IMG/VR virus record: IMGVR_UViG_3300045988_182948
DNA: 64,000 bases
Source of the DNA: a virus
Direction: 5' to 3' (one strand)
Shown: positions 3,854 through 38,473 of the stretch, one piece after another
How positions within the stretch are numbered: the stretch's first letter is position 1
Layout: each line of letters begins with the position of its first letter
The notes under the pieces: generated by a model
What the model was told of the DNA's origin: nothing
Databases searched by the model: none
What the model saw: only the letters and a program-made list of their open reading frames with translations
Program-made: the position numbers and the translations under genes

Positions 3854-3933
3854 CCTTTCTCTTCTACTTGAAAATAAAAAGAGATATATCTCTATAATGA
3901 TATACCTCTTATTTCTCGTTTATTGTTACATCT

Positions 3934-4206
3934 TTATTTTATCATAAAATCTAAAATCTTTCTTTTATCACTACTTATTTTCTTATTGCATATTAGCATA
4001 TCCAAATGAACACAGAGAAGATACAACTGGTCTCCATTCATATCCTCAATATCTAGATTTTTGATATGGGCATTCTTTTTTAGCTGTTGATAATTTTCGC
4101 CTCTCTTGTAAGAAACTTTTAAACTATCTAGTTTCTCCATATTTCTTTTGGCTTCCTTAAGAAGTTCTTTTTTTGTGAATGAAGATATTTTCTTATAATA
4201 ACTCAT
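3934..4206 (-). CDS. hypothetical protein
   Basis: 90-aa basic ORF. Confidence 0.35.
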   Translation of the reverse strand: MSYYKKISSFTKKELLKEAKRNMEKLDSLKVSYKRGENYQQLKKNAHIKNLDIEDMNGDQLYLLCVHLDMLICNKKISSDKRKILDFMIK

Positions 4207-13733: not shown

Positions 13734-14034
13734 AACCTAAAGAAGAAGTTTTTTACTTCTTCCTTTGTATACTTTTCTTATTTCAAATAACACAAACACA
13801 AAAGTATCGCCTCCTGGAATGGCATGTTTTTCGTTGCTAAAGATGAAACTAGGGTTGCAACAGTTATTTCAAGAACATCTATCAAAAACGACACTCTCAA
13901 CCATATCATGAAATTTTATCACCTCCGCATAGAAACAATTCATTTATTTAGAATCTGAATGATTTCTATGCGGTTTTATTTTCATTTTTTTGACTATATG
14001 ATTCAACTATTGCTTGAGTTTACACCTAATTCGC

Positions 14035-14289
14035 GACAAAATAAAACTACGCAGAAGCCTCCTTTATTCCCTATTTTTTTATAATCTAGATAGACTATAA
14101 AATAAAGGAGAAAACAAGTATTACTCTGCGTAGAGGTGAATTTGCCTTTGGCTTGCAGGATAAAACCTGCCCTAAAAAAATGCTTGCCAAGTATCCTATT
14201 CATCGTTTTTGTAGATGGGACTATTAACGTTGTCTCAGAATTTTGGGGACATGAGCCATAAAAAGCAAGGGAGCAAAGGCTCCCTTTTT
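14035..14289 (+). ncRNA. repeated structured non-coding element, copy 1 (candidate sRNA with an intrinsic terminator)
   Basis: A conserved core is shared with 27196-27461. It has a P1 stem CTACGCAGA / TCTGCGTAG, an internal GCAGG / CCTGC stem, and a terminal hairpin GGGAGCAAAGGCTCCC plus a T-run. A possible TTTACA-17-TAAAAC promoter lies at 14021-14049. Confidence 0.5.
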
Positions 14290-14410
14290 CCTTGGCTTAA
14301 TTATATTATATAATGTTTTTGTTTTTTATTTATTTTTGATTGTGATTTGAAATTATCTATCTTGTAGCTTAAACTCAAGATAATAAAAAAGAGAACCCTC
14401 TCAGATTCCC

Positions 14411-15256
14411 TCAATTAACATTTACAAACTCGTTAAATACTTTTATCCCCTCTTCATTTCCTAGATGATTTTTCAAACAGTCAAGCAGGTCCATTTTACT
14501 TTGATAAGCTTCAACTACATAATCACTAATAGATAATTTTTCTGCCTTTTCTTTTAACTTCCGACTTGGATACAGTCTTTTATTATTTGAATAATTTTCG
14601 AAACATTTTAGTGCCTTTTTATATTCCTTCAACTTATTTATTTGTTTTCCGTTTATTAAAAATTGAAATTCTCTATTAAATATATCCCATTTCAAATTCA
14701 ATATATCATTACGAATCTCTTCATGTCTAAGTAATATTAACTTATCATAGTTAAGCTGACCTAGTAATTGGCATAGCTCATTCTCATTTCTTATATACAC
14801 TAGCATGTCCAAATCTATAAATTTTTCCAATCTCTTTATTAAGAGTGGTTCTTTTTGATAATCAGTAAGTATTTGACTAATTGATACATTAGGTATGCAG
14901 TCAATGTTGATGCTATAATCACCTTTTAATATGTTTATGGCGTCACCATATCCTTTATCTTTTGATACAATATAATACTCTTTGTTTTCTTTATATTTTA
15001 AAACCATCTTTGTTAGCTCAACAACAATACAAAAATCTAGTGAGTTCTTCTTTTGTTTACTGGCTGTATGTGTATAAAGCCCTATATTTCTATGATTCAT
15101 CAATGTATTCACACTATTAAAATCTATTTTTGCATTATTATTGCAAAAATAATAATAGTACGCATTTTTATCAATTGGAAAAGGCAATTCAAAACCTACA
15201 TTTTCACAATCAATAAAATAAACTTTCTTATATTTCTTGAATTTATTATTAAACAT
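14411..15256 (-). CDS. NYN/LabA-like (PIN-fold) domain protein
   Basis: The N-terminal KKVYFIDCENVG and IVSKDKGYGDAINIL resemble NYN-domain signatures. Confidence 0.4.
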   Translation of the reverse strand: MFNNKFKKYKKVYFIDCENVGFELPFPIDKNAYYYYFCNNNAKIDFNSVNTLMNHRNIGLYTHTASKQKKNSLDFCIVVELTKMVLKYKENKEYYIVSKDKGYGDAINILKGDYSINIDCIPNVSISQILTDYQKEPLLIKRLEKFIDLDMLVYIRNENELCQLLGQLNYDKLILLRHEEIRNDILNLKWDIFNREFQFLINGKQINKLKEYKKALKCFENYSNNKRLYPSRKLKEKAEKLSISDYVVEAYQSKMDLLDCLKNHLGNEEGIKVFNEFVNVN

Positions 15257-15283
15257 TTCTTATAATCCTTTCTTCTTATCTTT

Positions 15284-15580
15284 TTAATGCCAATTATCCG
15301 GCCAACCTACTGCCTGTCCACATCTATGGCAATGAGCATACCCAAACTCTTTAGATAAATCAGCTCCACATTTTGGGCAAAATGCTTTATCACCATCTGT
15401 GATGACTTGCTTATATTTGAATTGTCTATCAATGACTGATAGTATATAATCACACATACTTCTACCAAGCATGGATGATTCACCTAGAGTATGGAACAAT
15501 TTTTCTTCTAATTCTTCTCTTTCATATTTTATCATATTTTTCCTCCTACTCATTAATTTGAGTTTCTTTTGTTCCACCAA
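15284..15580 (-). CDS. zinc-ribbon protein
   Basis: CPKCGADL...CHRCGQ, i.e. two CxxC pairs. Confidence 0.4.
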   Translation of the reverse strand: MVEQKKLKLMSRRKNMIKYEREELEEKLFHTLGESSMLGRSMCDYILSVIDRQFKYKQVITDGDKAFCPKCGADLSKEFGYAHCHRCGQAVGWPDNWH

Positions 15581-15755
15581 ATTCAGTTGTAGAATAATTG
15601 CTGCACCCAGTTAAAGAAGAAACACATATTAACAACATTGCTACAATAAGTATATTTTTTTTAATCATTTCACTTTCTCCTATTCTTGTATTTTCATCAA
15701 CAATATAAATAAAAATTGTTTTCAATTATTATATTTTTATTGGTAAGTCTTTTTT

Positions 15756-15941
15756 TTAAAAATCAGTTGAACCAGTCCAAACTTCATTCTTTAAATTATC
15801 ATCTTCATGAGTACCCCTATGAAAACCAAAGAATATTGTTTCTTGTTTTTTATTTAACGCATCTGTAACTAAAGTTGGATTTTGAAAACAAAATTCATCT
15901 TCACTTTTTAAATCATGAAATTCTTCCATACTATCCTCCAT
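15756..15941 (-). CDS. small hypothetical protein
   Basis: 61-aa ORF. Confidence 0.25.
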   Translation of the reverse strand: MEDSMEEFHDLKSEDEFCFQNPTLVTDALNKKQETIFFGFHRGTHEDDNLKNEVWTGSTDF

Positions 15942-15967
15942 ATAAATACAAGGCTAATATTTTCCTC

Positions 15968-16528
15968 TTATATCTTATTCATATTCTCTAATCTTTTTTG
16001 CAACAGCATAGCAGTATTAATAGCATCATAAGAAGCATGATGTTCAGTCCCCTTAAACTCTCCAAATTCCTTTTCAACAATCTGCATAAGTGATGGCAAC
16101 TGCTGAAAGTTTTCCTGTTCCATGATATAGGATTGAAGGTCAATAAACGTCATCTCATTAAATTCCTTCTCGAATCCATTATCCTTACAGTTCACTCTTA
16201 AAACTGCTGAATCTCTAGGCCCCCATGATACATATAAAGTCTCTAAATTATCCTTATGAATCCATTTCAGGAATTCTTTAAAAACTTCACTAAAATTTAT
16301 TGATGATAGTATTTCATCTCTTGAAACTCCTGTTAAGGACAAGATAGAATTGGAAGGAATGTTATGAGGTTTAATGATTCTTCTGAATTTATCTCCTTCA
16401 ATAATTCTTTCTCCATATCTTGTTGTATATATTTTCTTAGCTGCTAATTCAAATATTTCTGTCTTATTCCTTTCTTTTGAAAATTCTAAATCAATAACGA
16501 TATATTGCCCAGCATAATCATAATTCAT
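15968..16528 (-). CDS. DEDDh 3'-5' exonuclease (DnaQ/epsilon-like)
   Basis: Exo I (YIVIDLEFS), Exo II and Exo III (HHASYDAINTAML) motifs. Confidence 0.7.
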   Translation of the reverse strand: MNYDYAGQYIVIDLEFSKERNKTEIFELAAKKIYTTRYGERIIEGDKFRRIIKPHNIPSNSILSLTGVSRDEILSSINFSEVFKEFLKWIHKDNLETLYVSWGPRDSAVLRVNCKDNGFEKEFNEMTFIDLQSYIMEQENFQQLPSLMQIVEKEFGEFKGTEHHASYDAINTAMLLQKRLENMNKI

Positions 16529-16668
16529 TAATGGTTTTCTCTCCTTTCATTCTCCAAATAAAAAGAATCTACAATTGCTATGTAGATTCTTTTGTTTCGT
16601 ATATATTACCCTTATATTTTACCACATATCAAAGGATATGTACTATGTTCATTTGAATCTCAATCAAT

Positions 16669-18855
16669 TTATAATCTTAGCATTTTTTTAAACACCTTAA
16701 ACATTTCATTTGGCAAATTCTGCGGATTCTTAACACATACAGAGTTTTCATAAATTTGTCTAATTGAATCAAAATCAAAATTACCTAAACCAATGCCAAC
16801 TGAATGGACTTGATAATGTTTTTTAAAAGTATTCATGATTTTCTGCATATCCTCTATTGCAGAAGCTCCACCATATTGTGCTGCTGCAGGTTCGCCATCT
16901 GAAAGTATAAAGAAATAAAGGTCTTCATCAGGTTGAGATGATTTTACCAACTCCCTTAAAGAATGAAATATAGCCAACCCATCTCGGTTATTTTCATGAG
17001 CCTTAATATGAAAGAGGTTATCGAGAGCCTGAAGTTTTCGACAGTTTTGGAAAGATATATATTTCCTTATTCTAACGTCTAAAGAAAAATCTTCATCATG
17101 TCCATATACAGCAAATGGGATTTTCAGCTTTTGAGCAGCCTTTGCTACCATCCAGCAGCCAACGATTGCATTTTCTATTTTAGAACCTCTCATACTTCCT
17201 GATTCATCTACTAAAATGATGAATCGGACTTTTTTCTTCTCTCCAGACGTTTCCTTCTTAAAAACCTGCAAATCAGTTTTTATTCTATAAAGTCCACTCA
17301 TATCAATGTTTCCTTCAAATCTGCCCTTTGATACATCATCCTGGCTTCTGTGCATAAGTATCTTTTTCATTTTTTTAGATAATTCATTCACAGATGATGA
17401 TAATTCATCTTTCTTTATCATTTTTAATGCTTCTTTTCCCTCTGATGTATATTCTTCTTTCATAGAAAGAGAATCCTCCAAATCAATCATAGATACAGAA
17501 ACGCTATGATGACACGCTGTCTCGCCTGCTCTTTCATCTTCATCAGATGTAATAGAGGCTTTCTCTGCTCTATCTTCAGTCTTCTCGAAAGTTTTTGATG
17601 CTCCATCTAAAGCTTCACTCATTGAATTGATGGCTTCATCTTCTAATTCCTTTGCTGTTGGTTTTGTTCTTTCTGGAGCAGCTGATTCATCTGACTTTGA
17701 ATCAGCTTCATCTTTCAGACTCTCTTTACCAAGTTCTTTTGCAGATTCTTCCATTTCCTTTTTTAAATCCTCAGGCAATCCTAAATCATATTTGCTTGGA
17801 GCAGAAGATTTCATTTTAGCGCCACCTCTCGCAGTGCCTCCTCCGCCCATGCTTTTCACTACTTCTGAATCAACTGAACCTGTACTTTTACTATGACTTT
17901 CTGCCTCTTTTGCCATTTTTTCCATCATCTCTTTGGCATGGTCAATATTATAAAGGTACTCATTTGTAAGATTATCTGCTATTTTGTCAAGTAGTGGCTG
18001 ACAAAGATTCAGTAATGCTTTGGCAGTTGCTGCTCTTTCATAGGTTGTTGGTGCTTCAAATCTTGCATATAAAGCAAGATTCTTAATCTTTTCAATATCA
18101 TCATCTTCAAACAATGCATTCAATACCTGTATATCAATATGTTTTCGATATCCAACATGTCCAAAAGCCTGTGCTTCAAAAAGCACAGCTCTTAGAGTAT
18201 TGTCATCCCAATTATCCATGTCAAGGCATACATAACCTGATTCAATGGCCTGTCTGAAAAGTTCTTTCTGCTTATCATGTCCTATATTCCTTAAAAATGT
18301 TAGGCATCCATTTTCTTCCCTTCCTTTTTCACACATACATCTATCTACAGATAAGTCTTCATATATGTTATTGACCTCTGGCATATTAACTTTAAAAACA
18401 AAGTCTCCTACCTTTTCTCTGACAAGAGGAATTAAATCTGCCTTATCTTCTTCCTTGGCAGAATGATAATCATTTGCTGCTTTTTCTACTTCTTTTTTAG
18501 CATCACAAAGGTCTTGGTGAAGCTGACCTATTATATTAAAGTCTGAATAAAGCAAATGCCCAGACTCATGGTAGATGAGAGCTTTTGCAATGATATGATA
18601 ATGAGATGTATCAAAGGCTTTATCTTCATAAGTCCACAAATCTATATTCATAATAGGATTGCCATCTTTATCAAAACTTGTAAAACTGCTCCCAACCTTA
18701 TCCATATAAAAGTTTAAGTTCATTCTTTTGGAAACTATCTGAGCCAAACTCTTGAAAGAAGCTTTGTACCCCTTGCTGGAAAGTAATTCTATCCCTGTTA
18801 AAATTCTTTTTTTACTTTTCTTTCCCAATAGTGATTTCTTTGTTGGTTTCTTCAT
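16669..18855 (-). CDS. vWA-domain protein (CobT/CbbO/NorD-like partner of a MoxR-type ATPase) with an N-terminal HExxH motif
   Basis: C-terminal vWA with MIDAS (ILVDESGSM...SDGEP). HESGH at about residue 97. A long acidic/Ser-rich linker. Confidence 0.6.
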   Translation of the reverse strand: MKKPTKKSLLGKKSKKRILTGIELLSSKGYKASFKSLAQIVSKRMNLNFYMDKVGSSFTSFDKDGNPIMNIDLWTYEDKAFDTSHYHIIAKALIYHESGHLLYSDFNIIGQLHQDLCDAKKEVEKAANDYHSAKEEDKADLIPLVREKVGDFVFKVNMPEVNNIYEDLSVDRCMCEKGREENGCLTFLRNIGHDKQKELFRQAIESGYVCLDMDNWDDNTLRAVLFEAQAFGHVGYRKHIDIQVLNALFEDDDIEKIKNLALYARFEAPTTYERAATAKALLNLCQPLLDKIADNLTNEYLYNIDHAKEMMEKMAKEAESHSKSTGSVDSEVVKSMGGGGTARGGAKMKSSAPSKYDLGLPEDLKKEMEESAKELGKESLKDEADSKSDESAAPERTKPTAKELEDEAINSMSEALDGASKTFEKTEDRAEKASITSDEDERAGETACHHSVSVSMIDLEDSLSMKEEYTSEGKEALKMIKKDELSSSVNELSKKMKKILMHRSQDDVSKGRFEGNIDMSGLYRIKTDLQVFKKETSGEKKKVRFIILVDESGSMRGSKIENAIVGCWMVAKAAQKLKIPFAVYGHDEDFSLDVRIRKYISFQNCRKLQALDNLFHIKAHENNRDGLAIFHSLRELVKSSQPDEDLYFFILSDGEPAAAQYGGASAIEDMQKIMNTFKKHYQVHSVGIGLGNFDFDSIRQIYENSVCVKNPQNLPNEMFKVFKKMLRL

Positions 18856-18894
18856 AATTTCTCCTTTATATTGAAAGGGATGAAAAAATCATCC

Positions 18895-20691
18895 CTAAAC
18901 TAATTCTATTGTTTCAAATTCATATTCTTTTCTTGGCATTTTAGGTTTAACGCCTGCAAATGTATTCATAATCTCATTATAAGCATAATCAATCACAGGG
19001 TCTCCTGTTGCAGTAAAGTCTTCTGGTTTATTTGACCCCTTTACTCTATCAACTTCTTTTGATAGAGGGGCAAGTACTGTTGTAAAAGCGGCTCTTACTG
19101 GATTGTCAATATCCTTAATCTTTTTAGCCCAAGATAGACAATTACGTAAGTCAATATTTTGTGTTGTTTCATCTCCATCATCTCTAATTTGTGTCTTGAT
19201 GTTATTCTTGCATTTAATAATCTTAGAAGCTAAATCTCTATCAATACCTGTAGAGTTAACTATGATATTTGTTTCTGTCATCTCATCATATCCTGATAAA
19301 TTATGCCACTCATCAACACGTGAAATATGAGACAAATTATCTTCTTTTGTTCCTTCATACCCTATATTCATAGCTTCACAATATCTAAAATTATCATGAG
19401 CGATGATTGTTTCTCCAGTTTGAGGAATTGTATACATTCTTGTATCATCAAGCACATTATTTGTTGCTGAAACAACGCCTGCATTCACCATGTTTCTTTC
19501 ATCAAAGAAAAAGATTCCACCATATCTCATAATTCTTGTCAATGGACCTTCACAAAATTCTGTTGTACCATCCTTAATTGTCATATATCCATATAAGTGA
19601 GATGTTTCTGTATCACTATTTCCTGTCAGAATCATGAAAGGCAATTTTAACGCCCCTGCCATCATTTTAACGAATGTTGTTTTCCCTGATGCAGATGGAC
19701 CATAGAATCCCATTTTCCAGATATTTCCGTTTTTAAAGCTTTGAATTGATTCCCATAACTCATCTGTTATTGACTCCTTATTTTTTTCAAATAAGTCCAT
19801 AGCAATTTGACGAGTTCTTTGTAAATCAAGCGGTAATTTCTTTGCTTCTGCATCAGACATTAATGAATAGTCTCTTTCAGAATATGGTACAAATACAGTT
19901 GCTGCTTTAGCATCTTTTCCTTTTTTACTCTTTCTTTTAATAGTTGGAGCATGAATTTCCTTAACTACTTCATCCCCAATATCAAGAGACAAATCATACA
20001 CATTATTGTGCATTGCAACTAAAGGAAGAATATTATATTGGATATAAGGGGCATATTCTTCATCAATGAGTTCATCATTGTCAATCTCCTTGAAATTAAA
20101 TCCATCAAATGTTTTAGCAGTAAAATATAGCGAATCACATAAAGGCAAAAATTTCTCTGCTTCTGATGATTCGACTAAAGTTCCTGCGGTTATAGAATCA
20201 TATTTTTCCTTAGGAAGATTTTTAAATTCACACAAATATGAGAAAACTTCTCTTGCTTCATCACTTGCTTTATTTCCCTTTTTCACAAACTCTAATAAAT
20301 CATATCCCAAAATCAATCTATAAAAGAGATGTGAATAGATATTTGTAGCATAAATCATTTTATCTGCTGGAATGACTACGAATGTTTCAATAGGATTTTT
20401 CGTACCCCCAGTGAATTTACATAAAAGAAATTCCTTTTTATCCTTTTTTCCCCACGCCATAATTGTGTTTTCATCAACAATTTGCGAATCAATTACTGCT
20501 TTAGCAATTTTACTTGATAGCCTTGATACGATTTTTCCACTCGATGGTGAAGGTGTTGTATTTTTAATTGAATAAAAATGCTCATCCTCCTTGTTTGCTG
20601 TAAATTGAGTGTTTGGAATTAAACTTCCTGCATCCGTTGAAGAAAATGCCATCCTAGATGCTTGATAAATCGTTTTTTTAATTGCTGCCAT
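18895..20691 (-). CDS. MoxR/CobS/CbbQ-like AAA+ ATPase (AAA_5 type) with a ~300-aa N-terminal extension
   Basis: Walker A GPSASGKTT and Walker B IFFFDE. Lies immediately upstream of the vWA partner with a 39-nt gap. Confidence 0.6.
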   Translation of the reverse strand: MAAIKKTIYQASRMAFSSTDAGSLIPNTQFTANKEDEHFYSIKNTTPSPSSGKIVSRLSSKIAKAVIDSQIVDENTIMAWGKKDKKEFLLCKFTGGTKNPIETFVVIPADKMIYATNIYSHLFYRLILGYDLLEFVKKGNKASDEAREVFSYLCEFKNLPKEKYDSITAGTLVESSEAEKFLPLCDSLYFTAKTFDGFNFKEIDNDELIDEEYAPYIQYNILPLVAMHNNVYDLSLDIGDEVVKEIHAPTIKRKSKKGKDAKAATVFVPYSERDYSLMSDAEAKKLPLDLQRTRQIAMDLFEKNKESITDELWESIQSFKNGNIWKMGFYGPSASGKTTFVKMMAGALKLPFMILTGNSDTETSHLYGYMTIKDGTTEFCEGPLTRIMRYGGIFFFDERNMVNAGVVSATNNVLDDTRMYTIPQTGETIIAHDNFRYCEAMNIGYEGTKEDNLSHISRVDEWHNLSGYDEMTETNIIVNSTGIDRDLASKIIKCKNNIKTQIRDDGDETTQNIDLRNCLSWAKKIKDIDNPVRAAFTTVLAPLSKEVDRVKGSNKPEDFTATGDPVIDYAYNEIMNTFAGVKPKMPRKEYEFETIELV

Positions 20692-20867
20692 AAATTTTCT
20701 CCTTTCTTTTCTGCTCTTTTTATCTGATATCTTTTTTCTCTCATACGTATTGTCTCCATGACTTTTGTCAAAAGAAAAAAGACTTTCTCTCTGTAGACAC
20801 AGATAAAAAGTCGTTTAATAATACATATATATTTTATCATAAATCATTTGATTTGTGATAAGTCTTT

Positions 20868-21224
20868 TTATTCTATAGAGGATTTTGAATGCTTTTGAAA
20901 CATCTTTTCAAACTCCTCTCTCTTCCGATGAAGATTTTCCTCGTCTAGCTGTTTCCATAACTCTTTTTCCTTTGAAATGCGTTCATATGCATCATTTAAA
21001 AAAAGTGCATCTGGAGACATTCCAAAATAGCGTGAGATAAGATAAGCATCATTATATGAGAGTTCATTTAACCCTCTTTCTAACGCACTCACATATTGAG
21101 GTGTTTTTCCTATAACTTTTGCAACATCAGCCTGTGTAATATTTAACCTTTTTCGCGTTTTTCTATAATGATTTAATCTTCTGCATTCCTGTAAATTCAT
21201 AACTTCCCCTCCACTATCTAACAA
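20868..21224 (-). CDS. XRE-family HTH transcriptional regulator
   Basis: HTH region ITQADVAKVIGKTPQYVSALERG. Confidence 0.7.
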   Translation of the reverse strand: MLDSGGEVMNLQECRRLNHYRKTRKRLNITQADVAKVIGKTPQYVSALERGLNELSYNDAYLISRYFGMSPDALFLNDAYERISKEKELWKQLDEENLHRKREEFEKMFQKHSKSSIE

Positions 21225-21484
21225 AATTCTATATTTGTCATTTTATGATATAATAAATATGTACCTTTAGTACGAATTGTTTTTTTGTGATTCATATTGA
21301 CTTTCCCTCCCTTTTATTGAGGATAGAAATAACATATCAGCTTATTTTATCCTACTAGAGTTTATATCCAATCACAAGACCTATACAAATGAGTTATCTC
21401 CCTAACAAGTTTGTATATCATGTCATTGATTTGACTTTGAAAGTAATTGATTTTAAGAGACAGCATATAATATGTCTCGTCCGA

Positions 21485-21510
21485 AGCCCCTCATCTAGGG
21501 GCCCTTTTTT
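21485..21510 (+). terminator. intrinsic terminator-like hairpin (GCCCCTCATCTAGGGGC plus T6)
   Basis: Seen in sequence. It is canonical in the plus orientation and sits just downstream of the minus gene ending at 21515, so it may act bidirectionally. Confidence 0.4.
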
Positions 21511-21514
21511 ATAT

Positions 21515-22210
21515 CTATATATTGACATTCGTATCTACATTCTCATTAAAATCAATCATATTTCCACTCACTGCATTATAAAATTCCTCATTTTCATCAA
21601 AAGGTATAAACCATTGCTGTTTCCTATCATCATAATAAAACTCAACAATAAATGTTTTCTGATAATTTCTTTTTATTGTATGGACTGCGGATTTAATCTT
21701 TTCAATATTACGAGTTAAAAATTCCTCATGATTATAATTTATATCTATCTGTGTATCATCGTTCACAAGCTGCTCGATAATCTTATCTAATATCTCTAAA
21801 TTATTATATGTCGTTACAGTTATCTTTGCTTTGGAATAAGGAATATGACTTGACCAGTTATCAACTGTCATTGTCTGTATTTGATAAGAAACATTCCCGT
21901 ATATATGTTCTTCTATTATATTGTGAATATCCTGATTATTTTCAAATCCTGTCTCAATAATAAACCTTTCTGGAGCGGTTTGAGAAATCTCTGCAATTTC
22001 TTCAATGTTTTTACTATTCCATGCTATAAATAGCGATTCTACTTTAGCCTGAATTTGAGTCCGCTGCCTATAATTATCTTTTAGCACTCCTATAACCAAT
22101 AGCAAAGCGAAGCACATGAAAACAGACATTAGCATTTTTGCTATTTTTTTATAATTAAATAATCCCCATAAAATGAATGATTTTATCTTTAGTTTTAATC
22201 CTCTTATCAT
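21515..22210 (-). CDS. membrane-anchored hypothetical protein
   Basis: N-terminal TM segment, 231 aa. Confidence 0.45.
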   Translation of the reverse strand: MIRGLKLKIKSFILWGLFNYKKIAKMLMSVFMCFALLLVIGVLKDNYRQRTQIQAKVESLFIAWNSKNIEEIAEISQTAPERFIIETGFENNQDIHNIIEEHIYGNVSYQIQTMTVDNWSSHIPYSKAKITVTTYNNLEILDKIIEQLVNDDTQIDINYNHEEFLTRNIEKIKSAVHTIKRNYQKTFIVEFYYDDRKQQWFIPFDENEEFYNAVSGNMIDFNENVDTNVNI

Positions 22211-22412
22211 TTGTCACCTCTCTCATTTCCTTTTTATTATATCACTATAATCACATTTCTATATTATACAAACTATAATTATAATTTTTTAGCATTTATA
22301 CAAATTGTGATATAATATAAGTGTCTTTTTAATACGAATTTAATTATTATAATTACTTTCAAAACGTAAGTCCTAGTTATCCATAAATCTAGGCAGAAGG
22401 GAGAAAAATTTT

Positions 22413-22937
22413 ATGGAACAATTTATTTTATTATCAGTTTATTCAGAGTATGAAAAAACATCAGAAATGATAGCTAATACTCAAAGATTTATACCTTTTA
22501 TTGCGCTTGCATTTATATTCTTTATAATTGTACTAGTTATTGTTGGAATTTGTACTGCCTTTTTTAGCTATAAGGAGCTAACTGTTAAAAGAAAAACAGA
22601 GCAAGCAAAAATTAGTGCAGAATTATTGAAAGCGAAATCAACTTTATTAGCTGCTCAAGCACAGTTTGCTCATGCTCAGCAAAAAGATGTTGATAGTGTA
22701 ACTGCAACTGCTTTAAGAACTGCTTTTGCTAAGATTAAAAGTCCTGAGGATGTTTTATCTGTTGTTGATTCAGCTGAACATCAGGCTCATTCTCAACTTT
22801 TAAAATCACCTCTTTTTGATGATGATTTCACTATTGAGTCTGAAGCAGACCTTAATCATTTTCTTGACCGCATGGCAGAAGATTTAACTTCTGGTTTACA
22901 ATCTCAAGATGTAACTGATACTATTCCCGTAGAGTAG
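22413..22937 (+). CDS. membrane protein with a coiled-coil region
   Basis: TM helix at residues ~25-50, Ala/Gln-rich helix. Followed by the terminator at 22950-22975. Confidence 0.5.
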   Translation: MEQFILLSVYSEYEKTSEMIANTQRFIPFIALAFIFFIIVLVIVGICTAFFSYKELTVKRKTEQAKISAELLKAKSTLLAAQAQFAHAQQKDVDSVTATALRTAFAKIKSPEDVLSVVDSAEHQAHSQLLKSPLFDDDFTIESEADLNHFLDRMAEDLTSGLQSQDVTDTIPVE

Positions 22938-22949
22938 GAATTCAAAATT

Positions 22950-22975
22950 CTGTAGCATTTGCTACAGTTTTTTTG
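22950..22975 (+). terminator. rho-independent terminator
   Basis: CTGTAGCATTTGCTACAG followed by T7. Confidence 0.6.
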
Positions 22976-22991
22976 TGCATTATTTTATAAA

Positions 22992-23483
22992 TTATATCTT
23001 CCTATATTCTACCTTCAAATCTTTATCAAGCTTATAGGAGATTATGGAAGGAGTGTCTTTTTTATATGCATGGACATTCATAATATACCCTTCATCTATC
23101 TGATGAAATTCTATTGCAATTGGAATAATAGATATTGTCTTTAACATATCAGATACTCTCCTATGTTCTATTTTAACACTTTCACAAATCCATAAAATGT
23201 TTGAAATATTTGTCAATTGAGAATAGATAAGAACTTGTCCAAGGTGCTTAGAATCACTGTTTTCATACTGATTCTCTACAATCAGCCCTCCTTCTCCCTC
23301 TTTCTCTTTGTATATCATATCTATTCTATACTCACCTATTGTGGCTTCTGTTTTAAAAAGAGAAATGGGACTATCAAAGATGTTGAGGGTTTTAGCTATA
23401 TCTGGAATAAGATTATTTTTAGCCAGCCATGGTGTAAAATCTGTAGTCTCATTTGGGAAGATATCTCGTAAATCAATTTTCAC
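22992..23483 (-). CDS. PD-(D/E)xK-like nuclease-fold protein (tentative)
   Basis: The RIDMIY...LIVENQYE...K pattern is consistent with a D...E.K restriction-endonuclease-like core. Confidence 0.35.
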   Translation of the reverse strand: MKIDLRDIFPNETTDFTPWLAKNNLIPDIAKTLNIFDSPISLFKTEATIGEYRIDMIYKEKEGEGGLIVENQYENSDSKHLGQVLIYSQLTNISNILWICESVKIEHRRVSDMLKTISIIPIAIEFHQIDEGYIMNVHAYKKDTPSIISYKLDKDLKVEYRKI

Positions 23484-23515
23484 TCCTTTCTCACTCCTGG
23501 ACGTTTGCCCAAATT

Positions 23516-24181
23516 TTACTTCATCGAAAAATCTAATATCTTTATCTGATTATCTCTTTCTTTTGTCTTTATATATAAATCAAAATGATAAAACATTTCA
23601 TATAATGAATCTTCCTCATAACAAAATAGGAATTTCTTCTCCTGCAAATCAAGTATGGAATATACCCCTGTACTATTCCCTAAGAAATATTTTAATTCTA
23701 TTTTTCCCATAGTTCCAAATAAAGGATTATAGTTAGCCAAATAACTTAGATAGGGAGTGAAAACAGCAAATTCACAAAAGCCATACTCATCTATCAGAAT
23801 ATCTAAACAAAAAGATTCACCTTGATTCTTGTTTCTTAAAAGAGAAAAGTTATCACTATAATATAAAGAAGCCTTTGCCTTTTCTTTCTCCATTGGTAAA
23901 ACATTCATTTTCTTTAGGCTTTTCAAAATCTTTTTAAAATCATCACCCACTACAAATAGATGCCGAATACTTCCATAATTCAATTGATGGTTTCTTATAA
24001 GAATTTCTTCTTCAATACTTTTCAGGTATGTTTCTAGTTTCAAATCAAATAACCTCCATAAAAAAAGTGTCAGGCTTAGCACGACACTTAAAAGTATAAT
24101 ATCTATATAGAATCTGCTTTGGCTCCTTTCTTTTCTTGATTTGTTTTTTGAATGCTCTTGATAACATCTATTTTTACACAA
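23516..24181 (-). CDS. TM-anchored hypothetical protein (overlaps the upstream NTase gene by 79 nt)
   Basis: Single N-terminal TM helix FYIDIILLSVVLSLTLFLW. 221 aa. Confidence 0.4.
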   Translation of the reverse strand: MCKNRCYQEHSKNKSRKERSQSRFYIDIILLSVVLSLTLFLWRLFDLKLETYLKSIEEEILIRNHQLNYGSIRHLFVVGDDFKKILKSLKKMNVLPMEKEKAKASLYYSDNFSLLRNKNQGESFCLDILIDEYGFCEFAVFTPYLSYLANYNPLFGTMGKIELKYFLGNSTGVYSILDLQEKKFLFCYEEDSLYEMFYHFDLYIKTKERDNQIKILDFSMK

Positions 24182-25005
24182 TCTGAAACATAATCCTCAA
24201 TAAGAGAATTAAGTTTATCCAACGTTATATCATTAACTGTGAGAGAATTATTCTCCAGTAACTTGTTTATTTCACATTCGGCTTTTTTCACATATGTATC
24301 AGCCAAATAAATTGCTTCTGAATACTCTATTGGTGCTGTTTTATATTTCTTAATCTTATTTTTCTCTTTTATTGATAGAAAATCAAGATTCATAAGTGAT
24401 TCAAAGTTTACTTTTCCATCTAATCTAGCAACTTCTGAGACCATTTCAGATAAACGTGCAAGATGATGCAACTGCTTTGGGTTATATTTATAAATATCAA
24501 AAATTTCTTGTCCAGAATCTGTTCTCTTTTCAAGCCCCTTTCTTTTTTCATAAATAAATCCCTGCATTGACTTAACAAATCTTTTTACATCCCGATTTGA
24601 GATATCGTCTCTCATTTCCTTCAAAGATTTTAAAAATAATAAAGTTCTAACACGTTGGTATTCCTTATTTACATAGAAATATGGGGTATATAATAACTCC
24701 AGATATGTTGGATTCATCTTATAAAGAAGATTTCCTAATAATCTAATATCTTTCACTTCAATATGACTCTTATCATTCATGACAAGTTCTTTAGAAATCA
24801 TATTTGGTCTTTCAAGTAAGTCTTTAAGCGTTGGGATAATAAAGCACTTAACATCAAAATCACTGCTATAGTCGTCAGTATATTCGTCAAAACCATAATT
24901 CTGGGAACCTTGTAAACACATAAATGCAACATGATAATCAGTATTTTCTTTAAGCCAGTTCATTTTCTTTTTCATTTCATTTAATACCATTTGTTTTTTT
25001 GCCAT
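24103..25005 (-). CDS. Pol-beta-superfamily nucleotidyltransferase-fold protein
   Basis: GSQNYGFDEYTDDYSSDFDVKCF matches the GS-x(n)-DxD nucleotidyltransferase signature. Confidence 0.5.
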   Translation of the reverse strand: MAKKQMVLNEMKKKMNWLKENTDYHVAFMCLQGSQNYGFDEYTDDYSSDFDVKCFIIPTLKDLLERPNMISKELVMNDKSHIEVKDIRLLGNLLYKMNPTYLELLYTPYFYVNKEYQRVRTLLFLKSLKEMRDDISNRDVKRFVKSMQGFIYEKRKGLEKRTDSGQEIFDIYKYNPKQLHHLARLSEMVSEVARLDGKVNFESLMNLDFLSIKEKNKIKKYKTAPIEYSEAIYLADTYVKKAECEINKLLENNSLTVNDITLDKLNSLIEDYVSDCVKIDVIKSIQKTNQEKKGAKADSI

Positions 25006-25111
25006 ATTTCTATCAATCCCCCTATCTCAAGTATTTCTTTACAACCACAATTATAACATATTATTAGATTTTAGTCAATAATATGGATTTTATTTACTTA
25101 GATAAATTATT

Positions 25112-26362
25112 TCATCTTAAAAAACCTGGTGGATGAATATCCATTCCTAACTGTGTTGAAAAATCAGAAAGTTCCTCATCTAGTAGACTATGACCAAATT
25201 TTATGCTTTTTTCTCCCCACCTCTCTTTAATTTCCTGAATAATCTCCTCTAAATGCAACTGTTCATAACGGTCCTCTTCATTAGCAGTATTAAATAGACT
25301 CATCTGATACGCATAAGTTTCCTTCTCAACAAGGCTGCTGACAGATATTGAAAGACTTCTTAAAGGAATAGCCATATTCCAATTATCCCTAAGAAGAATC
25401 ATTACCATATCCAAGATTTCCTGTGCTATGTTTGTAGGAGTATCTACTCGCTTTTGCCTGCTTAATCCCTGTAAATCCTTATACCTCATACCAATGGATA
25501 TAACAGACCCTAGCTTATTTGATTGTCGCAATCGTTTAGCAACACTTTCTGCAAGCATTGACAGGACTATCTTTGCTTCCTCAATAGTATGTATATCATG
25601 TTTTGCTGTTATGCCATTCCCTACACTCTTTATCACTTGCTGACTTGAATTGACTGAGAGAGTGTCATAGCCATTTGCAAACAGCCATACCATTTCACCA
25701 TTCTTCCCCAGAAAACTCTTGATATATTCTTTAGATGATAATGCTAAATCTCCTAATGTATAGATATTTCTTTCATTCAATTGTGATGATGTTGCTTTTC
25801 CTATATAAAGAATATCTGCAACGGGTAATGGAAAAACCATATCTTTAAAATTATCTCGTGTTATCACTGCAAGCCCTTGTTTCTTATCTAAGTCACTTCC
25901 TAATTTTGCAAAAACCTTATTAAAACTTAACCCCATCGATACTGTCAACCCAAGTTCTTTAAACACTCTTCTTTGAATCTCCTCGGCTAATTCCATAGCA
26001 GTCTTATGAAAAAGTTTTTCGGTTCCTGTAATATCAATCCAGGCTTCATCCAAGCCAAAACTTTCAACCTTATCACTATATTCTCGATAAATTCTTTTGA
26101 CTTCCTCTGTATAGAATAAATAGTCATCATAATGCGGAGGAACAATTAACAGTTCTGGGCATTTCTGAAAAGCGTCTCTCAGTGATTCACCAGTTTTAAT
26201 ATGATACTTTTTAGCCAAATCATTTTTTGCAAGAATAATTCCATGCCTGTCCTCTTCATGACCTCCAACAGCCATTGGAACATTTCTTAATTCTGGATAC
26301 ATCATTTCTTCAATCTGAGCATAGCAATGATTAATATCACTATGGATTATCCATCTTTCCAT
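25112..26362 (-). CDS. Y-family DNA polymerase (DinB/UmuC-like)
   Basis: IIHSDINHCYAQIE, FGLDEAWIDIT and GLTVSMGLSFNKVFAKLGSDLDKKQGL align with the DinB/UmuC conserved blocks. Confidence 0.75.
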   Translation of the reverse strand: MERWIIHSDINHCYAQIEEMMYPELRNVPMAVGGHEEDRHGIILAKNDLAKKYHIKTGESLRDAFQKCPELLIVPPHYDDYLFYTEEVKRIYREYSDKVESFGLDEAWIDITGTEKLFHKTAMELAEEIQRRVFKELGLTVSMGLSFNKVFAKLGSDLDKKQGLAVITRDNFKDMVFPLPVADILYIGKATSSQLNERNIYTLGDLALSSKEYIKSFLGKNGEMVWLFANGYDTLSVNSSQQVIKSVGNGITAKHDIHTIEEAKIVLSMLAESVAKRLRQSNKLGSVISIGMRYKDLQGLSRQKRVDTPTNIAQEILDMVMILLRDNWNMAIPLRSLSISVSSLVEKETYAYQMSLFNTANEEDRYEQLHLEEIIQEIKERWGEKSIKFGHSLLDEELSDFSTQLGMDIHPPGFLR

Positions 26363-26475
26363 ATGTCACCCTCCTTACAATTCCATTATATATTCTTTAC
26401 AGATAATGTGATTTATTATCTGTAATAATAAAACCCTTTTTTCGGTGTTAAAACAAAAAAGAGCAGCAATGCTAC

Positions 26476-27021
26476 TCATTCGTATCTATGTTTTTTCTTA
26501 GTACAATCTTTCCAGCTTCTGCTATATTGTCTTGATATGTCGTCCCATGATGTTGGCAGGTTTTTTATTCTACCGTTTTTTAAAGATAATTTTGTATTTG
26601 GATAATTCTCCTTATATTCTCTTCTCTCCTCTTTTGAAACTATGTTCTTTAAACTATGTGTAGTGTAAGGGGTTCTATAGTGTTTATAATGGTTATGTCC
26701 AATATGAGGACAACTTTTGTATTTGCGTTTGTAAAATTCAAGTCTTTCATTGCGGTAATTATCATAGAGTTTTTGAAGATTAATATAAGTTTTTGTATTA
26801 TATTCAGCAAAAAGGAAAACTGTTCCCTTTGTACACATGAAATAATCATCTTGAATTATAAAAAAATTATTTTTCCAAACATCTTCCCAATTTTGAAAAT
26901 TTAATGTATCTGAAAATTCCCATTTACTGTCTATGATTAATTTTCCATCTTCTGAAAATTTGTAAGTGGCAGAATAAATATCGTAAGTTTTAGCTTTATA
27001 ATTTGAATGTATAGCTTTCAT
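26476..27021 (-). CDS. hypothetical protein (basic C-terminus)
   Basis: 181-aa ORF. Confidence 0.4.
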   Translation of the reverse strand: MKAIHSNYKAKTYDIYSATYKFSEDGKLIIDSKWEFSDTLNFQNWEDVWKNNFFIIQDDYFMCTKGTVFLFAEYNTKTYINLQKLYDNYRNERLEFYKRKYKSCPHIGHNHYKHYRTPYTTHSLKNIVSKEERREYKENYPNTKLSLKNGRIKNLPTSWDDISRQYSRSWKDCTKKKHRYE

Positions 27022-27195
27022 ATCTTCCTCCTAAAAAAGACTATCTTTCCTTGAAAAATAGCCACTTCGTTATATATTACTATAAATAGTATATCATGAT
27101 TAAAAACATATTTAATTTTATCAATATTTAATTTTATCAACAGGTTTATTCTTATTTTTATAATTCAAGTTATACTTGAATCTATTTTATATTTA

Positions 27196-27461
27196 TGACA
27201 AAATAAAACTACGCAGACAAGTGATTACTCTGCGTAGAGGTGAAATTGCCTTTGGCTTGCAGGATAAAACCTGCCTTAAAAAAATGCTTGCCAAGTATCC
27301 TATTCATCGTTTTTGTAGATGTCATAGAATGCCTGGCAACAAAAAACATGTCACTCATAAACACAATTATCTTTACCCTGATTGTAGATGTGACTATTAA
27401 CGTTGTCTCAGAATTTTGGAGACATGAGCCAAAATAGGCATGGGAGCGAAAGCTCCCTTTT
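27196..27461 (+). ncRNA. repeated structured non-coding element, copy 2
   Basis: Same core as 14035-14289. It lacks the 58-nt hairpin insert of copy 1 but carries a 69-nt insert at 27321-27389 flanked by TGTAGATG direct repeats. Terminator GGGAGCGAAAGCTCCC plus T-run. Confidence 0.5.
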
Positions 27462-27574
27462 ATTATATCACATTTAGAAATTTGTAATGTTTTTTTTAAC
27501 CTCTAAGAAATGCATATTGTATTTTTAGTGCTCATGGAAAATTATATATATCTTCTTTTTACATTATCAGCAAA

Positions 27575-31073: not shown

Positions 31074-31418
31074 ATGTGAGCAATCTTGTAGCAGTTCTTC
31101 TTTTCCTTCATATTTACAAGATTTTGAATCAAAAGGATGCTACAACATAATAGAAAAGAAGTTCGCCCACAGCTGAACAATCCGATAGCAATAAAGTTCT
31201 TTTTCTGCAAAATGTCTTCTTTACAAAATAAAAGGAAGCTATCATATATAAATTTATTAAAATAACAATAAATTTGAAAAAAGAACCACGTCCAGCGATT
31301 AATCTCTTTTCATTGCATAACCATTATAACATATAATTTGTTTTTAGTCAATTATATTTAAGATTATATGTCTTATTCTTAATTTCTTAAATGGTTATAA
31401 GTCGGTGTATTTCATTAC

Positions 31419-38188: not shown

Positions 38189-38263
38189 TGGTGTGAAAGA
38201 CGGGAATCGAACCCGTATAGTTGGAGCCACAATCCACCGCACTACCATTGTGCTACAATCACC
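38189..38263 (-). tRNA. tRNA-His (GUG) with G-1; two T:T mismatches in the acceptor stem
   Basis: Manual fold: T-arm ACGGG/TTCGATT/CCCGT, anticodon loop TTGTGGC, encoded CCA. Confidence 0.5.
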
Positions 38264-38316
38264 ATCATTATTTTATAAAGCAACACGCAAAAAGTGAGTG
38301 TTCGTCATAAAATATT

Positions 38317-38391
38317 TGGTACCCAATATAGGAATCGAACCTATAATTGATGGTTCGTAGCCATCTGTTTTATCCATTAGACTAATTGGGT
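38317..38391 (-). tRNA. tRNA-Arg (ACG)
   Basis: Perfect 7-bp acceptor, anticodon loop CTACGAA, encoded CCA. Confidence 0.7.
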
Positions 38392-38399
38392 ATGTTTTT

Positions 38400-38473
38400 T
38401 GGAGGCCTCGACCAGACTTGAACTGGTATAAATAGGGTTGCAGCCTATTGCATAGCCATTCTGCCACGAGGTC
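38400..38473 (-). tRNA. tRNA-Cys (GCA)
   Basis: Anticodon loop CTGCAAC. One A:C mismatch in the acceptor stem. Confidence 0.6.

What the first reader, a model, noticed from the sequence alone, without database searches (positions are those of the whole stretch)
14035..27461. A ~255-nt structured non-coding element in two direct copies bracketing a 13-kb gene block
14035-14289 and 27196-27461 share a ~190-nt core at more than 90% identity. The core runs from GACAAAATAAAACTACGCAGA through TTACTCTGCGTAGAGGTGAAATTGCCTTTGGCTTGCAGGATAAAACCTGCC and TGCTTGCCAAGTATCCTATTCATCGTTTTTGTAGATG to GACTATTAACGTTGTCTCAGAATTTTGG. Each copy ends in a GC-rich hairpin (GGGAGC-AAAG-GCTCCC) plus a T-run, i.e. a rho-independent terminator on the plus strand. 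Internal complementarity is visible: a 9-bp stem CTACGCAGA / TCTGCGTAG and a GCAGG / CCTGC stem. Neither copy precedes a same-strand gene, so they do not look like cis leaders or riboswitches. The ORFs overlapping them (14003-14203, 27176-27437) are not conserved between copies because of indels. This looks like an unclassified sRNA family, or a recombination or boundary element flanking an accessory module that includes a MoxR-vWA pair, a nucleotidyltransferase, a Y-family polymerase, a NYN protein and an XRE regulator.
Basis: seen in the sequence. Interest (0 to 1): 0.8.

Follow-up and report, generated by a model that had tools for sequence, protein, structure and literature searches.

The report
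Repeated small membrane-protein gene cassettes
The two repeats are most likely not a non-coding RNA but copies of a tiny gene with its own promoter and terminator, carried on a roughly 190-kb plasmid- or phage-like element of the gut bacterium Coprobacillus cateniformis, and some natural strains lack the 13-kb block between them, with a junction that fits recombination between the two copies.

Summary
The repeat is real. Copy A (14035-14289) and copy B (27197-27461) share blocks of 21 nt (100% identical), 105 nt (97%) and 80 nt (90%). No Rfam family matches.

The sRNA reading is not supported. Each copy is a self-contained small-gene cassette:
- a sigma-70-like promoter, TTGA(A/G)T-N17-CAAAAT;
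- a 5' hairpin that abuts a Shine-Dalgarno site, AGAGGTGA;
- a TTG-start ORF of 37 aa in A and 61 aa in B, where the 69-nt indel is in frame;
- an intrinsic terminator.

A third, diverged, inverted copy (C, 13739-14006, minus strand; 43-aa ORF) lies head-to-head with A. A fourth copy (D) lies outside the window.

NCBI already annotates the B ORF as a 61-aa hypothetical protein of Coprobacillus cateniformis. dN/dS between paralogues is 0.17-0.52. A Massilimicrobiota homologue with 44% protein identity keeps the same architecture with different hairpin sequences. It also keeps an extended -10 box on the opposite strand just outside the terminator. This suggests a cis-antisense RNA, that is, a type I toxin-antitoxin-like module. 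That step is inferred, not shown.

Metagenomic contigs from three samples lack the 13-kb block and carry a single chimeric copy. The direct repeats therefore look like substrates for homologous recombination, analogous to PeSL cassettes of T4-like phages.

Verdict: a new member of known kinds, of moderate interest.

The parts
13739..14006 (-). Copy C, a third, diverged, inverted cassette lying head-to-head with A. Parts: -35 TTGAAT 14006-14001; -10 GAAAAT 13983-13978; 5' hairpin 13973-13925 (CCGCATAGAAA/TTTCTATGCGG); SD GGAGGTGA 13926-13919; 43-aa ATG ORF 13909-13778; terminator 13765-13739.
   Evidence: Sequence read. ORF listed. The motif TTGAAT-N17-SAAAATAAAAC hits only A, B and C cleanly. 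DNA blocks are shared with B. Terminator found. The hairpin shows a compensatory C-G to U-A change in four loci.
14014..14047 (+). Copy A promoter-like motif: -35 TTGAGT 14014-14019, 17-nt spacer, -10 CAAAAT 14037-14042, then AAAAC.
   Evidence: Among its four hits the motif matches A, B and C (0.38 hits expected by chance); the fourth hit, at 45537, was examined and rejected. The same layout occurs in copy D and in Massilimicrobiota.
14047..14139 (+). Copy A 5' hairpin (arms 14047-14055 and 14125-14133, with a 58-nt palindromic insertion in the loop), followed directly by the SD AGAGGTGA at 14132-14139.
   Evidence: On the minus strand the hairpin is followed by GUUUUAUUUUG, which looks like a terminator.
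14148..14261 (+). Copy A small ORF: TTG start, 37 aa, MACRIKPALKKCLPSILFIVFVDGTINVVSEFWGHEP. It is a one-helix deletion derivative of the 61-aa form. A GCAGG/CCTGC hairpin lies at 14155-14170.
   Evidence: In six other loci this copy carries a TAG at the start position, so it is decaying.
14267..14310 (+). Copy A intrinsic terminator (14267-14286 plus T-run), with TATAAT boxes on the opposite strand (ATTATA at 14300-14310).
14290..27158 (.). The 13-kb block between A and B. It encodes PIN7, an RNase T-like exonuclease, a vWA/MoxR pair, an XRE-type HTH protein, an RlaP nucleotidyltransferase, a Y-family polymerase and a 181-aa protein. It is present or absent among natural variants.
   Evidence: Pfam hits. 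The block is absent in L009, L010 and L036. Homologues of some block genes sit next to the peptidase in distant relatives, so deletion is the likelier direction.
27165..27209 (+). Copy B palindrome TCAAGTTATACTTGA (27165-27179) overlapping the -35 TTGAAT (27176-27181), a 17-nt spacer, the -10 CAAAAT (27199-27204), then AAAAC.
   Evidence: The same palindrome occurs three times in 500 nt around the Massilimicrobiota homologue (0.13 expected).
27209..27243 (+). Copy B 5' hairpin (arms 27209-27217 and 27229-27237, 11-nt loop) abutting the SD AGAGGTGA at 27236-27243.
   Evidence: A G-C to G-U change in L025 keeps the pair.
27252..27437 (+). Copy B small ORF: TTG start, 61 aa, MACRIKPALKKCLPSILFIVFVDVIECLATKNMSLINTIIFTLIVDVTINVVSEFWRHEPK. 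Predicted two-helix hydrophobic hairpin. A GCAGG/CCTGC hairpin lies at 27259-27274.
   Evidence: 100% identical over the full length to NCBI RGO14167.1, a hypothetical protein of C. cateniformis. dN/dS 0.17-0.52. AlphaFold predicts helices 7-30 and 33-57. Hydropathy.
27442..27470 (+). Copy B intrinsic terminator (27442-27457 plus TTTT). Its U-tract, TTTTATTATATCA, is the complement of an extended -10 box (TGATATAAT, 27470-27462) on the minus strand. This is the candidate antisense promoter.
   Evidence: The equivalent TGNTATAAT is found in copy D and in Massilimicrobiota.

Best explanation
Each repeat is a compact, autonomously transcribed small-gene cassette (a 'moron'). It sits on a roughly 180-205-kb ParAB-carrying plasmid- or phage-like replicon of Coprobacillus cateniformis.

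Layout of one cassette:
- a sigma-70-type promoter, TTGA(A/G)T-N17-(C/G)AAAAT;
- a 5' hairpin that starts at about +1 and abuts or overlaps the Shine-Dalgarno site;
- a 37-61-codon ORF for a hydrophobic protein. The full-length form has two helices, a basic N-terminus and a VDV motif in each helix;
- a second hairpin over codons 3-8;
- an intrinsic terminator.

Proposed mechanism (inferred):
- A conserved extended -10 box on the opposite strand lies immediately outside the terminator. The 5' hairpin reads as a terminator on that strand. I therefore propose that a cis-antisense RNA is made across the ORF.
- The pair would then work like a type I toxin-antitoxin or addiction module, or at least as an antisense-controlled membrane peptide.

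Independent of that function, copies A and B are direct repeats of about 200 bp. They serve as substrates for homologous recombination that deletes or exchanges the 13-kb block between them.

My confidence in each step:
- protein-coding cassette: about 0.85;
- recombination role: about 0.85;
- antisense RNA: about 0.5;
- toxin or addiction function: about 0.3.
For: Coding:
- The SD and a start codon sit at a fixed place in every copy: TTG in A, B and some D copies, ATG in C, L025, L034 and Massilimicrobiota. In L025 and L034 a 1-nt indel just upstream accompanies the switch to ATG and keeps the frame.
- The 69-nt indel is in frame.
- NCBI calls exactly this ORF.
- B versus D: dN/dS 0.17-0.52, with differences by codon position of 7/4/19.
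- A HMMER profile finds 62-aa homologues in Massilimicrobiota (E = 4.5e-10) and in a metagenome.
- AlphaFold predicts a two-helix hairpin. Hydropathy agrees.

Architecture:
- The promoter motif hits A, B and C, against 0.38 hits expected.
- The hairpin sequences differ between A/B, C and Massilimicrobiota, but their positions are kept.
- The C hairpin shows a C-G to U-A double change in four loci.

Antisense:
- TGATATAAT or TGGTATAAT lies just outside the terminator in B, D and Massilimicrobiota, and TATAAT in A.
- The reverse-strand hairpins are followed by U-tracts.
- The 5' region is much more conserved at the nucleotide level than the rest of the ORF.

Recombination:
- L009 and L010 match the window at 29265-27217 and at 14217-11544. 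The two matches overlap by 104 nt inside the shared block.
- L036 is a second type of block-less junction.
- L035 joins the A-locus flank to the D-locus flank.

Replicon:
- ParA and ParB are present.
- Exact copies of the neighbouring PIN7 protein occur in 671 data blocks, on contigs up to 205 kb.
Against: - There are no expression or translation data.
- The start codon is TTG in most copies.
- The wobble-aligned antisense frame is also open and looks conserved. Strand assignment therefore rests on the SD, the start codon, the promoter and the terminator, not on periodicity alone.
- Covariation is thin. RNAalifold gives a positive (unfavourable) covariation term. The attractive 5'-3' long-range pairing of the start region with the 3' end has no compensatory changes.
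- Copy C has no recognisable antisense promoter of its own.
- Copies A and C are often inactivated: a TAG at the start in six loci, a 107-nt ORF deletion in four loci (L002, L003, L007, L028), and a further deletion of part of the ORF in L030 and L035.
- Classical type I toxins usually have one helix and a basic tail.
- No known toxin family matches.
- The block-less junctions come from short-read assemblies. L035 and L036 have very low coverage.
Confidence: 0.55

Rival explanations
1. A small membrane-protein 'moron' with no toxin-antitoxin logic. The cassette would encode an accessory membrane peptide, for example an exclusion, holin-like or signalling peptide. The opposite-strand -10 box would simply be a promoter for the downstream minus-strand genes, or a by-product of the AT-rich terminator tail.
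For: - All the coding evidence applies here too.
- The two-helix topology resembles class II holins and small phage membrane proteins more than typical one-helix type I toxins.
- In copies A, B and D the minus strand beyond the cassette carries further genes that such a promoter could serve.
Against: - The TGNTATAAT box is conserved right at the terminator across genera.
- The reverse-strand terminator-like 5' hairpin is kept in every copy.
- There are several paralogues that decay often.
- The cassette is not next to an endolysin in the window.
- No holin family matches.
Confidence: 0.28
2. A PeSL-like regulatory or insulator cassette. What is selected is the pair of bidirectional terminators plus promoters at points of convergent transcription, and the portable homology they provide. 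The ORF would be incidental.
For: - All copies are convergent with the neighbouring gene.
- The C hairpin keeps pairing through a compensatory change even where ORF C is deleted.
- Indels and rearrangements end in the cassettes.
- The layout matches published PeSLs: promoter, stem-loop, SD and start codon (PMC2839356).
Against: - The ORF is under purifying selection.
- The ORF is conserved at protein level at 44% identity in another genus, while the DNA is no longer alignable.
Confidence: 0.1
3. One reading: a plus-strand structured non-coding sRNA of about 250 nt.
For: - The fold is stable (z = -3.0 and -6.5).
- The unit has its own promoter and terminator.
- The 5' 110 nt are very highly conserved at the nucleotide level.
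- No Rfam family matches.
Against: - An SD and a start codon are conserved.
- Substitutions are mostly at third codon positions and dN/dS is below 1.
- The indel is in frame.
- Homologues are found at the protein level.
- Most predicted internal helices are broken in paralogues, and the covariation term is +2.04.
Confidence: 0.05
4. Site-specific recombination sites (att-like) or ends of a transposable element that mobilise the 13-kb block.
For: Direct repeats bracket a block that is variably present.
Against: - No integrase or transposase lies next to the repeats.
- There are no terminal inverted repeats.
- The junctions differ between variants, and each lies anywhere within the shared homology (L009/L010 versus L036 versus L035).
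- The copies are 90-97% identical, not identical.
- Block genes are syntenic with the peptidase in distant relatives.
Confidence: 0.02

Closest known systems
PeSL (promoter-early stem-loop) cassettes of T4-like phages (Arbiol et al. 2010, PMC2839356; Comeau et al. 2014, PMC4122927)
   Same: Both are repeated composite motifs made of a sigma-70-like promoter, a stem-loop or terminator, an SD and a start codon. Both sit in plastic regions. In both, homologous recombination between copies creates insertions, deletions and replacements of accessory genes (for the published description; here).
   Different: Here the repeat is about 250 nt and includes a conserved small ORF and a second terminator. 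Four copies are seen (three in the window, one outside it), against about 50 per PeSL-bearing genome. The replicon belongs to a Firmicute and carries ParAB. Mini-circles were not tested.
Type I toxin-antitoxin modules of Firmicute mobile elements, for example the C. difficile prophage pair CD0977.1-RCd11 (Peltier et al. 2020, PMC7699646). The par/Fst locus of pAD1 and hok/sok are cited from my own knowledge.
   Same: - A small hydrophobic ORF with a consensus SD, often unannotated.
- Several paralogues on one mobile element.
- Its own promoter and a Rho-independent terminator.
- A candidate convergent or antisense transcript.
- Structured 5' ends that occlude the SD (for the published features; here).
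   Different: The peptide has two helices and 60-62 aa, with a basic N-terminus rather than one helix plus a lysine-rich tail. There is no sequence similarity to any Pfam, NCBIfam or PHROG toxin family. Neither the antisense RNA nor toxicity has been demonstrated.
Phage 'morons' (Hendrix and colleagues; cited from my own knowledge)
   Same: A promoter-ORF-terminator unit inserted between genes, transcribed against its neighbours, and absent from related genomes (L017-L024).
   Different: Morons are defined by arrangement, not by family. This one is multi-copy and also acts as recombination homology.

Membership tests
Any curated RNA family (Rfam 15) | Covariance-model score at or above the family's gathering threshold. 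| tested here: not met
   The gathering scan of the whole window finds only 21 tRNAs at 38.2-42.2 kb. Permissive scans of both copies give only sub-threshold noise.
Type I toxin-antitoxin system | A small hydrophobic toxin ORF with a ribosome-binding site. | tested here: met
   The ORF is 37-62 aa. The SD AGAGGTGA or GGAGGTGA lies 8-10 nt upstream of TTG or ATG. GRAVY is 0.4-1.2. Two helices are predicted.
Type I toxin-antitoxin system | An antisense RNA antitoxin overlapping or complementary to the toxin mRNA. | tested here: inconclusive
   An extended -10 box on the opposite strand is conserved just outside the terminator in B, D and Massilimicrobiota. The reverse-strand 5' hairpin has a U-tract. 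There are no transcript data, and copy C has no such promoter.
Type I toxin-antitoxin system | The peptide is toxic when expressed without the antitoxin. | not testable with these tools
   This needs an inducible expression experiment.
Known type I toxin or holin protein families (Pfam, NCBIfam, PHROGs) | A significant profile-HMM match. | tested here: not met
   There are no Pfam or PHROG hits at E up to 10, and only noise in NCBIfam. There is no PDB match by sequence.
PeSL regulatory cassettes | A composite of a sigma-70-like promoter, an adjacent stem-loop, an SD and a start codon. | tested here: met
   TTGAAT-N17-CAAAAT, then the hairpin, then the SD and start codon, in A, B, C, D and L037. 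Published definition read.
PeSL regulatory cassettes | Indels between close relatives are bounded by the cassettes, through homologous recombination. | tested here: met
   The block-less junctions of L009, L010 and L036 lie inside the shared homology. L035 is an A/D recombinant.
PeSL regulatory cassettes | Short non-coding motifs present in tens of copies in T4-like myovirus hyperplastic regions. | tested here: not met
   Three copies in 64 kb plus one outside. The repeat contains a conserved ORF. The replicon carries ParAB, and no T4-like markers were seen.
Moron | An autonomous promoter-ORF-terminator unit between genes, absent from related genomes. | tested here: met
   In relatives whose peptidase is 52-78% identical, the next gene follows 25-40 nt after the peptidase and no cassette is present.
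att site or transposon end | An adjacent recombinase and a fixed crossover point, or terminal inverted repeats. | tested here: not met
   The neighbours are a prepilin peptidase, PIN7, Sir2 and a 181-aa protein. Crossover positions differ between variants.

The most novel reading that the evidence does not exclude
This would be a previously undescribed type I toxin-antitoxin-like family of the Coprobacillus/Massilimicrobiota group, with a mirror-symmetric design. The -10 box plus A-tract of each promoter is the complement of the U-tract of the opposing transcript's terminator. Each terminal hairpin serves as the 5' cap structure of one RNA and the terminator of the other. The multi-copy cassette would also act as portable homology that shuffles 10-kb-scale accessory blocks on a plasmid- or phage-like replicon of about 190 kb.
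Probability: 0.3. Interest if true: 0.55.

Novelty: new member of a known kind. Interest (0 to 1): 0.38.

Why it matters
- It corrects a likely false 'new sRNA' call. Stable fold, own promoter and terminator, and no Rfam hit can all be features of a small-protein mRNA.
- It defines an uncharacterised family of two-helix peptides of about 60 aa, with a strikingly compact architecture that looks antisense-controlled. The family sits on a replicon that is very common in human-gut metagenomes. If it is a type I addiction module, it would be a tool and a maintenance factor for a large extrachromosomal element of a gut commensal.
- It gives a concrete natural example, outside T4-like phages, in which repeated regulatory or gene cassettes appear to mediate loss and exchange of a 13-kb accessory block.

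Tried and rejected
Searches that found nothing useful:
- Rfam at gathering and at permissive thresholds: only noise at the element.
- blastn or megablast of the element and of 7-27 kb against INPHARED phages and PLSDB plasmids: no match.
- tblastn of the peptide against the same two collections: only a chance hit.
- Exact or degenerate DNA patterns in IMG/VR: none.
- The same pattern in GTDB genomes: one chance hit in an Omnitrophota MAG, which I read and rejected.
- The metagenome pattern scan gave five loci. Two are real (L025 is a D-type copy and L028 is a C copy). Three are chance.
- The search for related loci with P0027 and P0028 in IMG/VR: nothing.

Readings I considered and rejected:
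- Frame Y (MLAKYPIHRFCR...) has no SD and is interrupted by stops in D copies.
- The minus-strand frame is open, but it has no SD and no fixed start.
- A fourth promoter-motif hit at 45537 has no hairpin or ORF after it.
- A Cas12a-repeat-like reading of UUGUAGAUG fails because there is no complementary UCUAC arm.
- The long internal hairpin and the 5'-3' long-range pairing predicted for copy B are not supported by covariation.
- More distant relatives of the replicon do not carry the cassette at the peptidase locus.

Full report
**1.
- Reading both loci, the repeat finder and blastn confirm two direct copies, A (14035-14289) and B (27197-27461).
- They share a 21-mer at 100% identity, a 105-nt block at 97% (E = 2e-45) and an 80-nt block at 90% (E = 2e-26).
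- A has a 58-nt palindromic insertion in the loop of the 9-bp stem. A also lacks 69 nt that B carries between two TTGTAGATG repeats.
- Both copies end in a GC-rich hairpin plus T-run that the terminator scan detects. Both fold more stably than shuffles (z = -3.0 and -6.5).
- No Rfam family matches at gathering or permissive thresholds.

**2. Context.**
- The window has 31% G+C and carries 21 tRNA genes.
- It encodes an FtsH-like protease, a prepilin-type peptidase, PIN7, an RNase T-like exonuclease, a vWA/MoxR pair, an RlaP nucleotidyltransferase, a Y-family polymerase and Sir2.
- It also encodes helicase and exonuclease genes and ParA/ParB. A topoisomerase is called at this position in the matching contigs.
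- It matches nothing in INPHARED or PLSDB, and pattern searches found nothing in IMG/VR or the GTDB representatives.
- Exact copies of its PIN7 protein occur in 671 blocks of public assemblies, on contigs of up to 205 kb, largely from gut metagenomes.
- The cassette proteins are annotated in Coprobacillus cateniformis isolate genomes on 182-204-kb contigs.
- I therefore treat the replicon as a large ParAB-bearing plasmid or phage-plasmid of C. cateniformis. Its exact nature was not resolved.

**3. The copies are gene cassettes, not an sRNA.**
- Six-frame translation shows one plus-strand frame open through both copies. The 69-nt indel equals 23 codons.
- A Shine-Dalgarno sequence, AGAGGTGA, directly follows the 3' arm of the 9-bp stem. 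An in-frame TTG lies 8 nt downstream (14148 in A, 27252 in B). This gives 37 aa in A and 61 aa in B.
- A pattern scan of metagenomes recovered a copy that is 83% identical (L025). There the start is ATG, created together with a 1-nt indel, and the 60-codon frame is intact.
- A profile search found that NCBI annotates exactly this ORF. P0021 is 61 aa, 100% identical to B over the full length, and is named 'hypothetical protein DXB30_12265'.
- The same search found a fourth paralogue, D (P0024, P0022, P0023, P0025), elsewhere on the same replicon.
- Between B and the D variants, dN/dS is 0.17-0.52. For winB versus L031, differences fall 7/4/19 on codon positions 1/2/3.
- A full HMMER scan of 1.8 billion representatives found 62-aa homologues in Massilimicrobiota sp. 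An142 (P0027, E = 4.5e-10, 44% identity) and in a metagenome (P0028).
- AlphaFold predicts two helices, 7-30 and 33-57, at pLDDT 68. Hydropathy shows two hydrophobic segments behind a basic N-terminus.
- No Pfam, PHROG, NCBIfam or PDB family matches.
- Caveat: the wobble-aligned antisense frame is also open and looks conserved. Strand assignment rests on the SD, the fixed start, the promoter and the terminator, not on periodicity alone.

**4. A third copy and a shared architecture.**
- Copy C lies on the minus strand at 13739-14006, head-to-head with A. Its layout is TTGAAT-N17-GAAAAT-AAAAC, an 11-bp hairpin (CCGCATAGAAA/TTTCTATGCGG), GGAGGTGA, 9 nt, an ATG ORF of 43 aa, and a terminator.
- It shares DNA blocks and the LATKNM peptide motif with B, including B's 69-nt segment. 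A is therefore the deletion derivative.
- The motif TTGAAT-N17-SAAAATAAAAC hits A, B and C, against 0.38 hits expected by chance. A fourth hit at 45537 was rejected.
- The Massilimicrobiota locus keeps the same plan with different sequences:
  - the palindrome TCAAGCATAACTTGA overlapping the -35 TTGAAT, a 17-nt spacer and TAAAAT;
  - a 5' hairpin CCTCTGTCG/CGACGGAGG, which there sequesters the SD;
  - GGAGGTGA and ATG;
  - a hairpin GCAGAC/GTCTGC over the early codons, against GCAGG/CCTGC here;
  - a terminator.
- Within the species, the C hairpin shows a C-G to U-A double substitution in four loci. The A/B hairpin shows G-C to G-U in L025 and an A·C mismatch in six A copies.
- RNAalifold on five full-length copies gives little covariation overall (covariation term +2.04). 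It does not support B's long internal hairpin.
- RNAalifold does predict pairing of the start-codon region with the segment just upstream of the terminator. That pairing is conserved but not compensated, so I treat it only as a lead.

**5. A candidate antisense partner (inferred).**
- In B, D and Massilimicrobiota the flanks are otherwise diverged. Even so, the sequence immediately after the terminator reads TGATATAAT or TGGTATAAT on the opposite strand, which is an extended -10 box. In A it reads TATAAT.
- On that strand the 5' hairpin is followed by GUUUUAUUUUG-type tracts in A, B, C and Massilimicrobiota.
- Thus each promoter's -10 box plus A-tract is the complement of the U-tract of the opposite transcript's terminator.
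- The 5' 110 nt (promoter, hairpin, SD, codons 1-11) are nearly invariant. The rest of the ORF differs by about 20% between B and D.
- Together with the ParAB replicon, the several paralogues and the frequent decay of A and C, this resembles type I toxin-antitoxin loci of Firmicute mobile elements (PMC7699646). The decay comprises a TAG at the start in six loci, a 107-nt ORF deletion in four loci, and further deletions in L030.
- No transcript or toxicity evidence exists here. I put the antisense RNA at about 0.5 and the toxin function at about 0.3.

**6. Recombination role.**
- Contigs L009 and L010 come from two samples and two assemblers. Sir2 is followed by a single cassette and then C, the peptidase and FtsH.
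- L009 matches the window at 29265-27217 (99.9%) and at 14217-11544 (99.4%). The two matches overlap by 104 nt inside the shared block.
- The L009 copy is A-type on the 5' side, including the loop insertion, and B-type on the 3' side, including the 69 nt.
- L036 is a second block-less junction with a different mosaic. L035 joins the A-locus flank to the D-locus flank. Both have low coverage, so I weight them less.
- Relatives whose peptidase is 52-78% identical have no cassette. They do have RNase T, MoxR and HTH genes next to the peptidase. The block is therefore probably ancestral, and the block-less forms are probably deletions.
- No recombinase flanks the copies, and crossover points differ. 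This is homologous rather than site-specific recombination.
- The closest published analogue is PeSL-mediated modular shuffling in T4-like phages (PMC2839356 and PMC4122927).

**7. Verdict.**
- The sRNA interpretation is not supported. The boundary or recombination interpretation is supported.
- The element is a multi-copy small membrane-protein cassette with probable antisense control. It is a new member of known kinds (moron, type I-TA-like module, PeSL-like recombination cassette).
- It is of moderate interest, mainly for its compact symmetric architecture and the documented structural polymorphism.

Noticed in passing
window 38192-42231 (minus strand): An array of 21 tRNA genes in about 4 kb. 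This is unusual for a plasmid and typical of large phages.
   Followed up: no
window 56103-58087: A ParA-like and a ParB-like partition gene pair. Upstream, at 53956-55900, lie nested inverted repeats (136-nt arms, 74% complementary; 40-nt arms, 83%). These could be a centromere or an origin region.
   Followed up: partly
window 14056-14119: The 58-nt insertion in the loop of copy A's 5' hairpin is itself a near-perfect palindrome (CCTCCTTTATT...AATAAAGGAG, with an inner TTATAATCTAGATAGACTATAA). It looks like a hairpin-forming mini-insertion.
   Followed up: no
window 27165-27179; L037 9921-9935, 10332-10346, 10416-10430: The palindrome TCAAG-N5-CTTGA overlaps the -35 of the cassette promoter. 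It is clustered three times within 500 nt in the Massilimicrobiota locus (0.13 expected). It may be an operator for a shared regulator.
   Followed up: partly
L037 10200-12070: A 1.9-kb gene-free stretch lies downstream of the Massilimicrobiota cassette. It has iteron-like AT-rich repeats followed by a GC-rich segment that looks structured. There is no Rfam hit at gathering threshold.
   Followed up: partly
L017 1-4775; L023 1107-4569: In related replicons the DnaE (DNA_pol3_alpha) gene is split into pieces. GIY-YIG and HNH homing-endonuclease genes lie between the pieces.
   Followed up: no
L031 13403-14443: The variable region downstream of copy D encodes a Lactamase_B protein with a weak Anti-Pycsar Apyc1 Pfam hit. 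Downstream of D the gene content differs between strains (L031 versus L034).
   Followed up: no
window 25039-25079, 31312-31352, 42327-42367; 3908-3948, 20803-20843, 52177-52217: Families of roughly 41-nt repeats in intergenic regions. On the minus strand they read as strong extended -10 promoters, for example TTGACT-N17-(TG)TTATAAT.
   Followed up: no
L030 3813-4240; L035 1779-1941: A recurrent deletion joins the middle of ORF C (window 13872) to the 3' arm of copy A's hairpin (window 14127). It removes both divergent promoters. The same junction is seen in two samples.
   Followed up: partly
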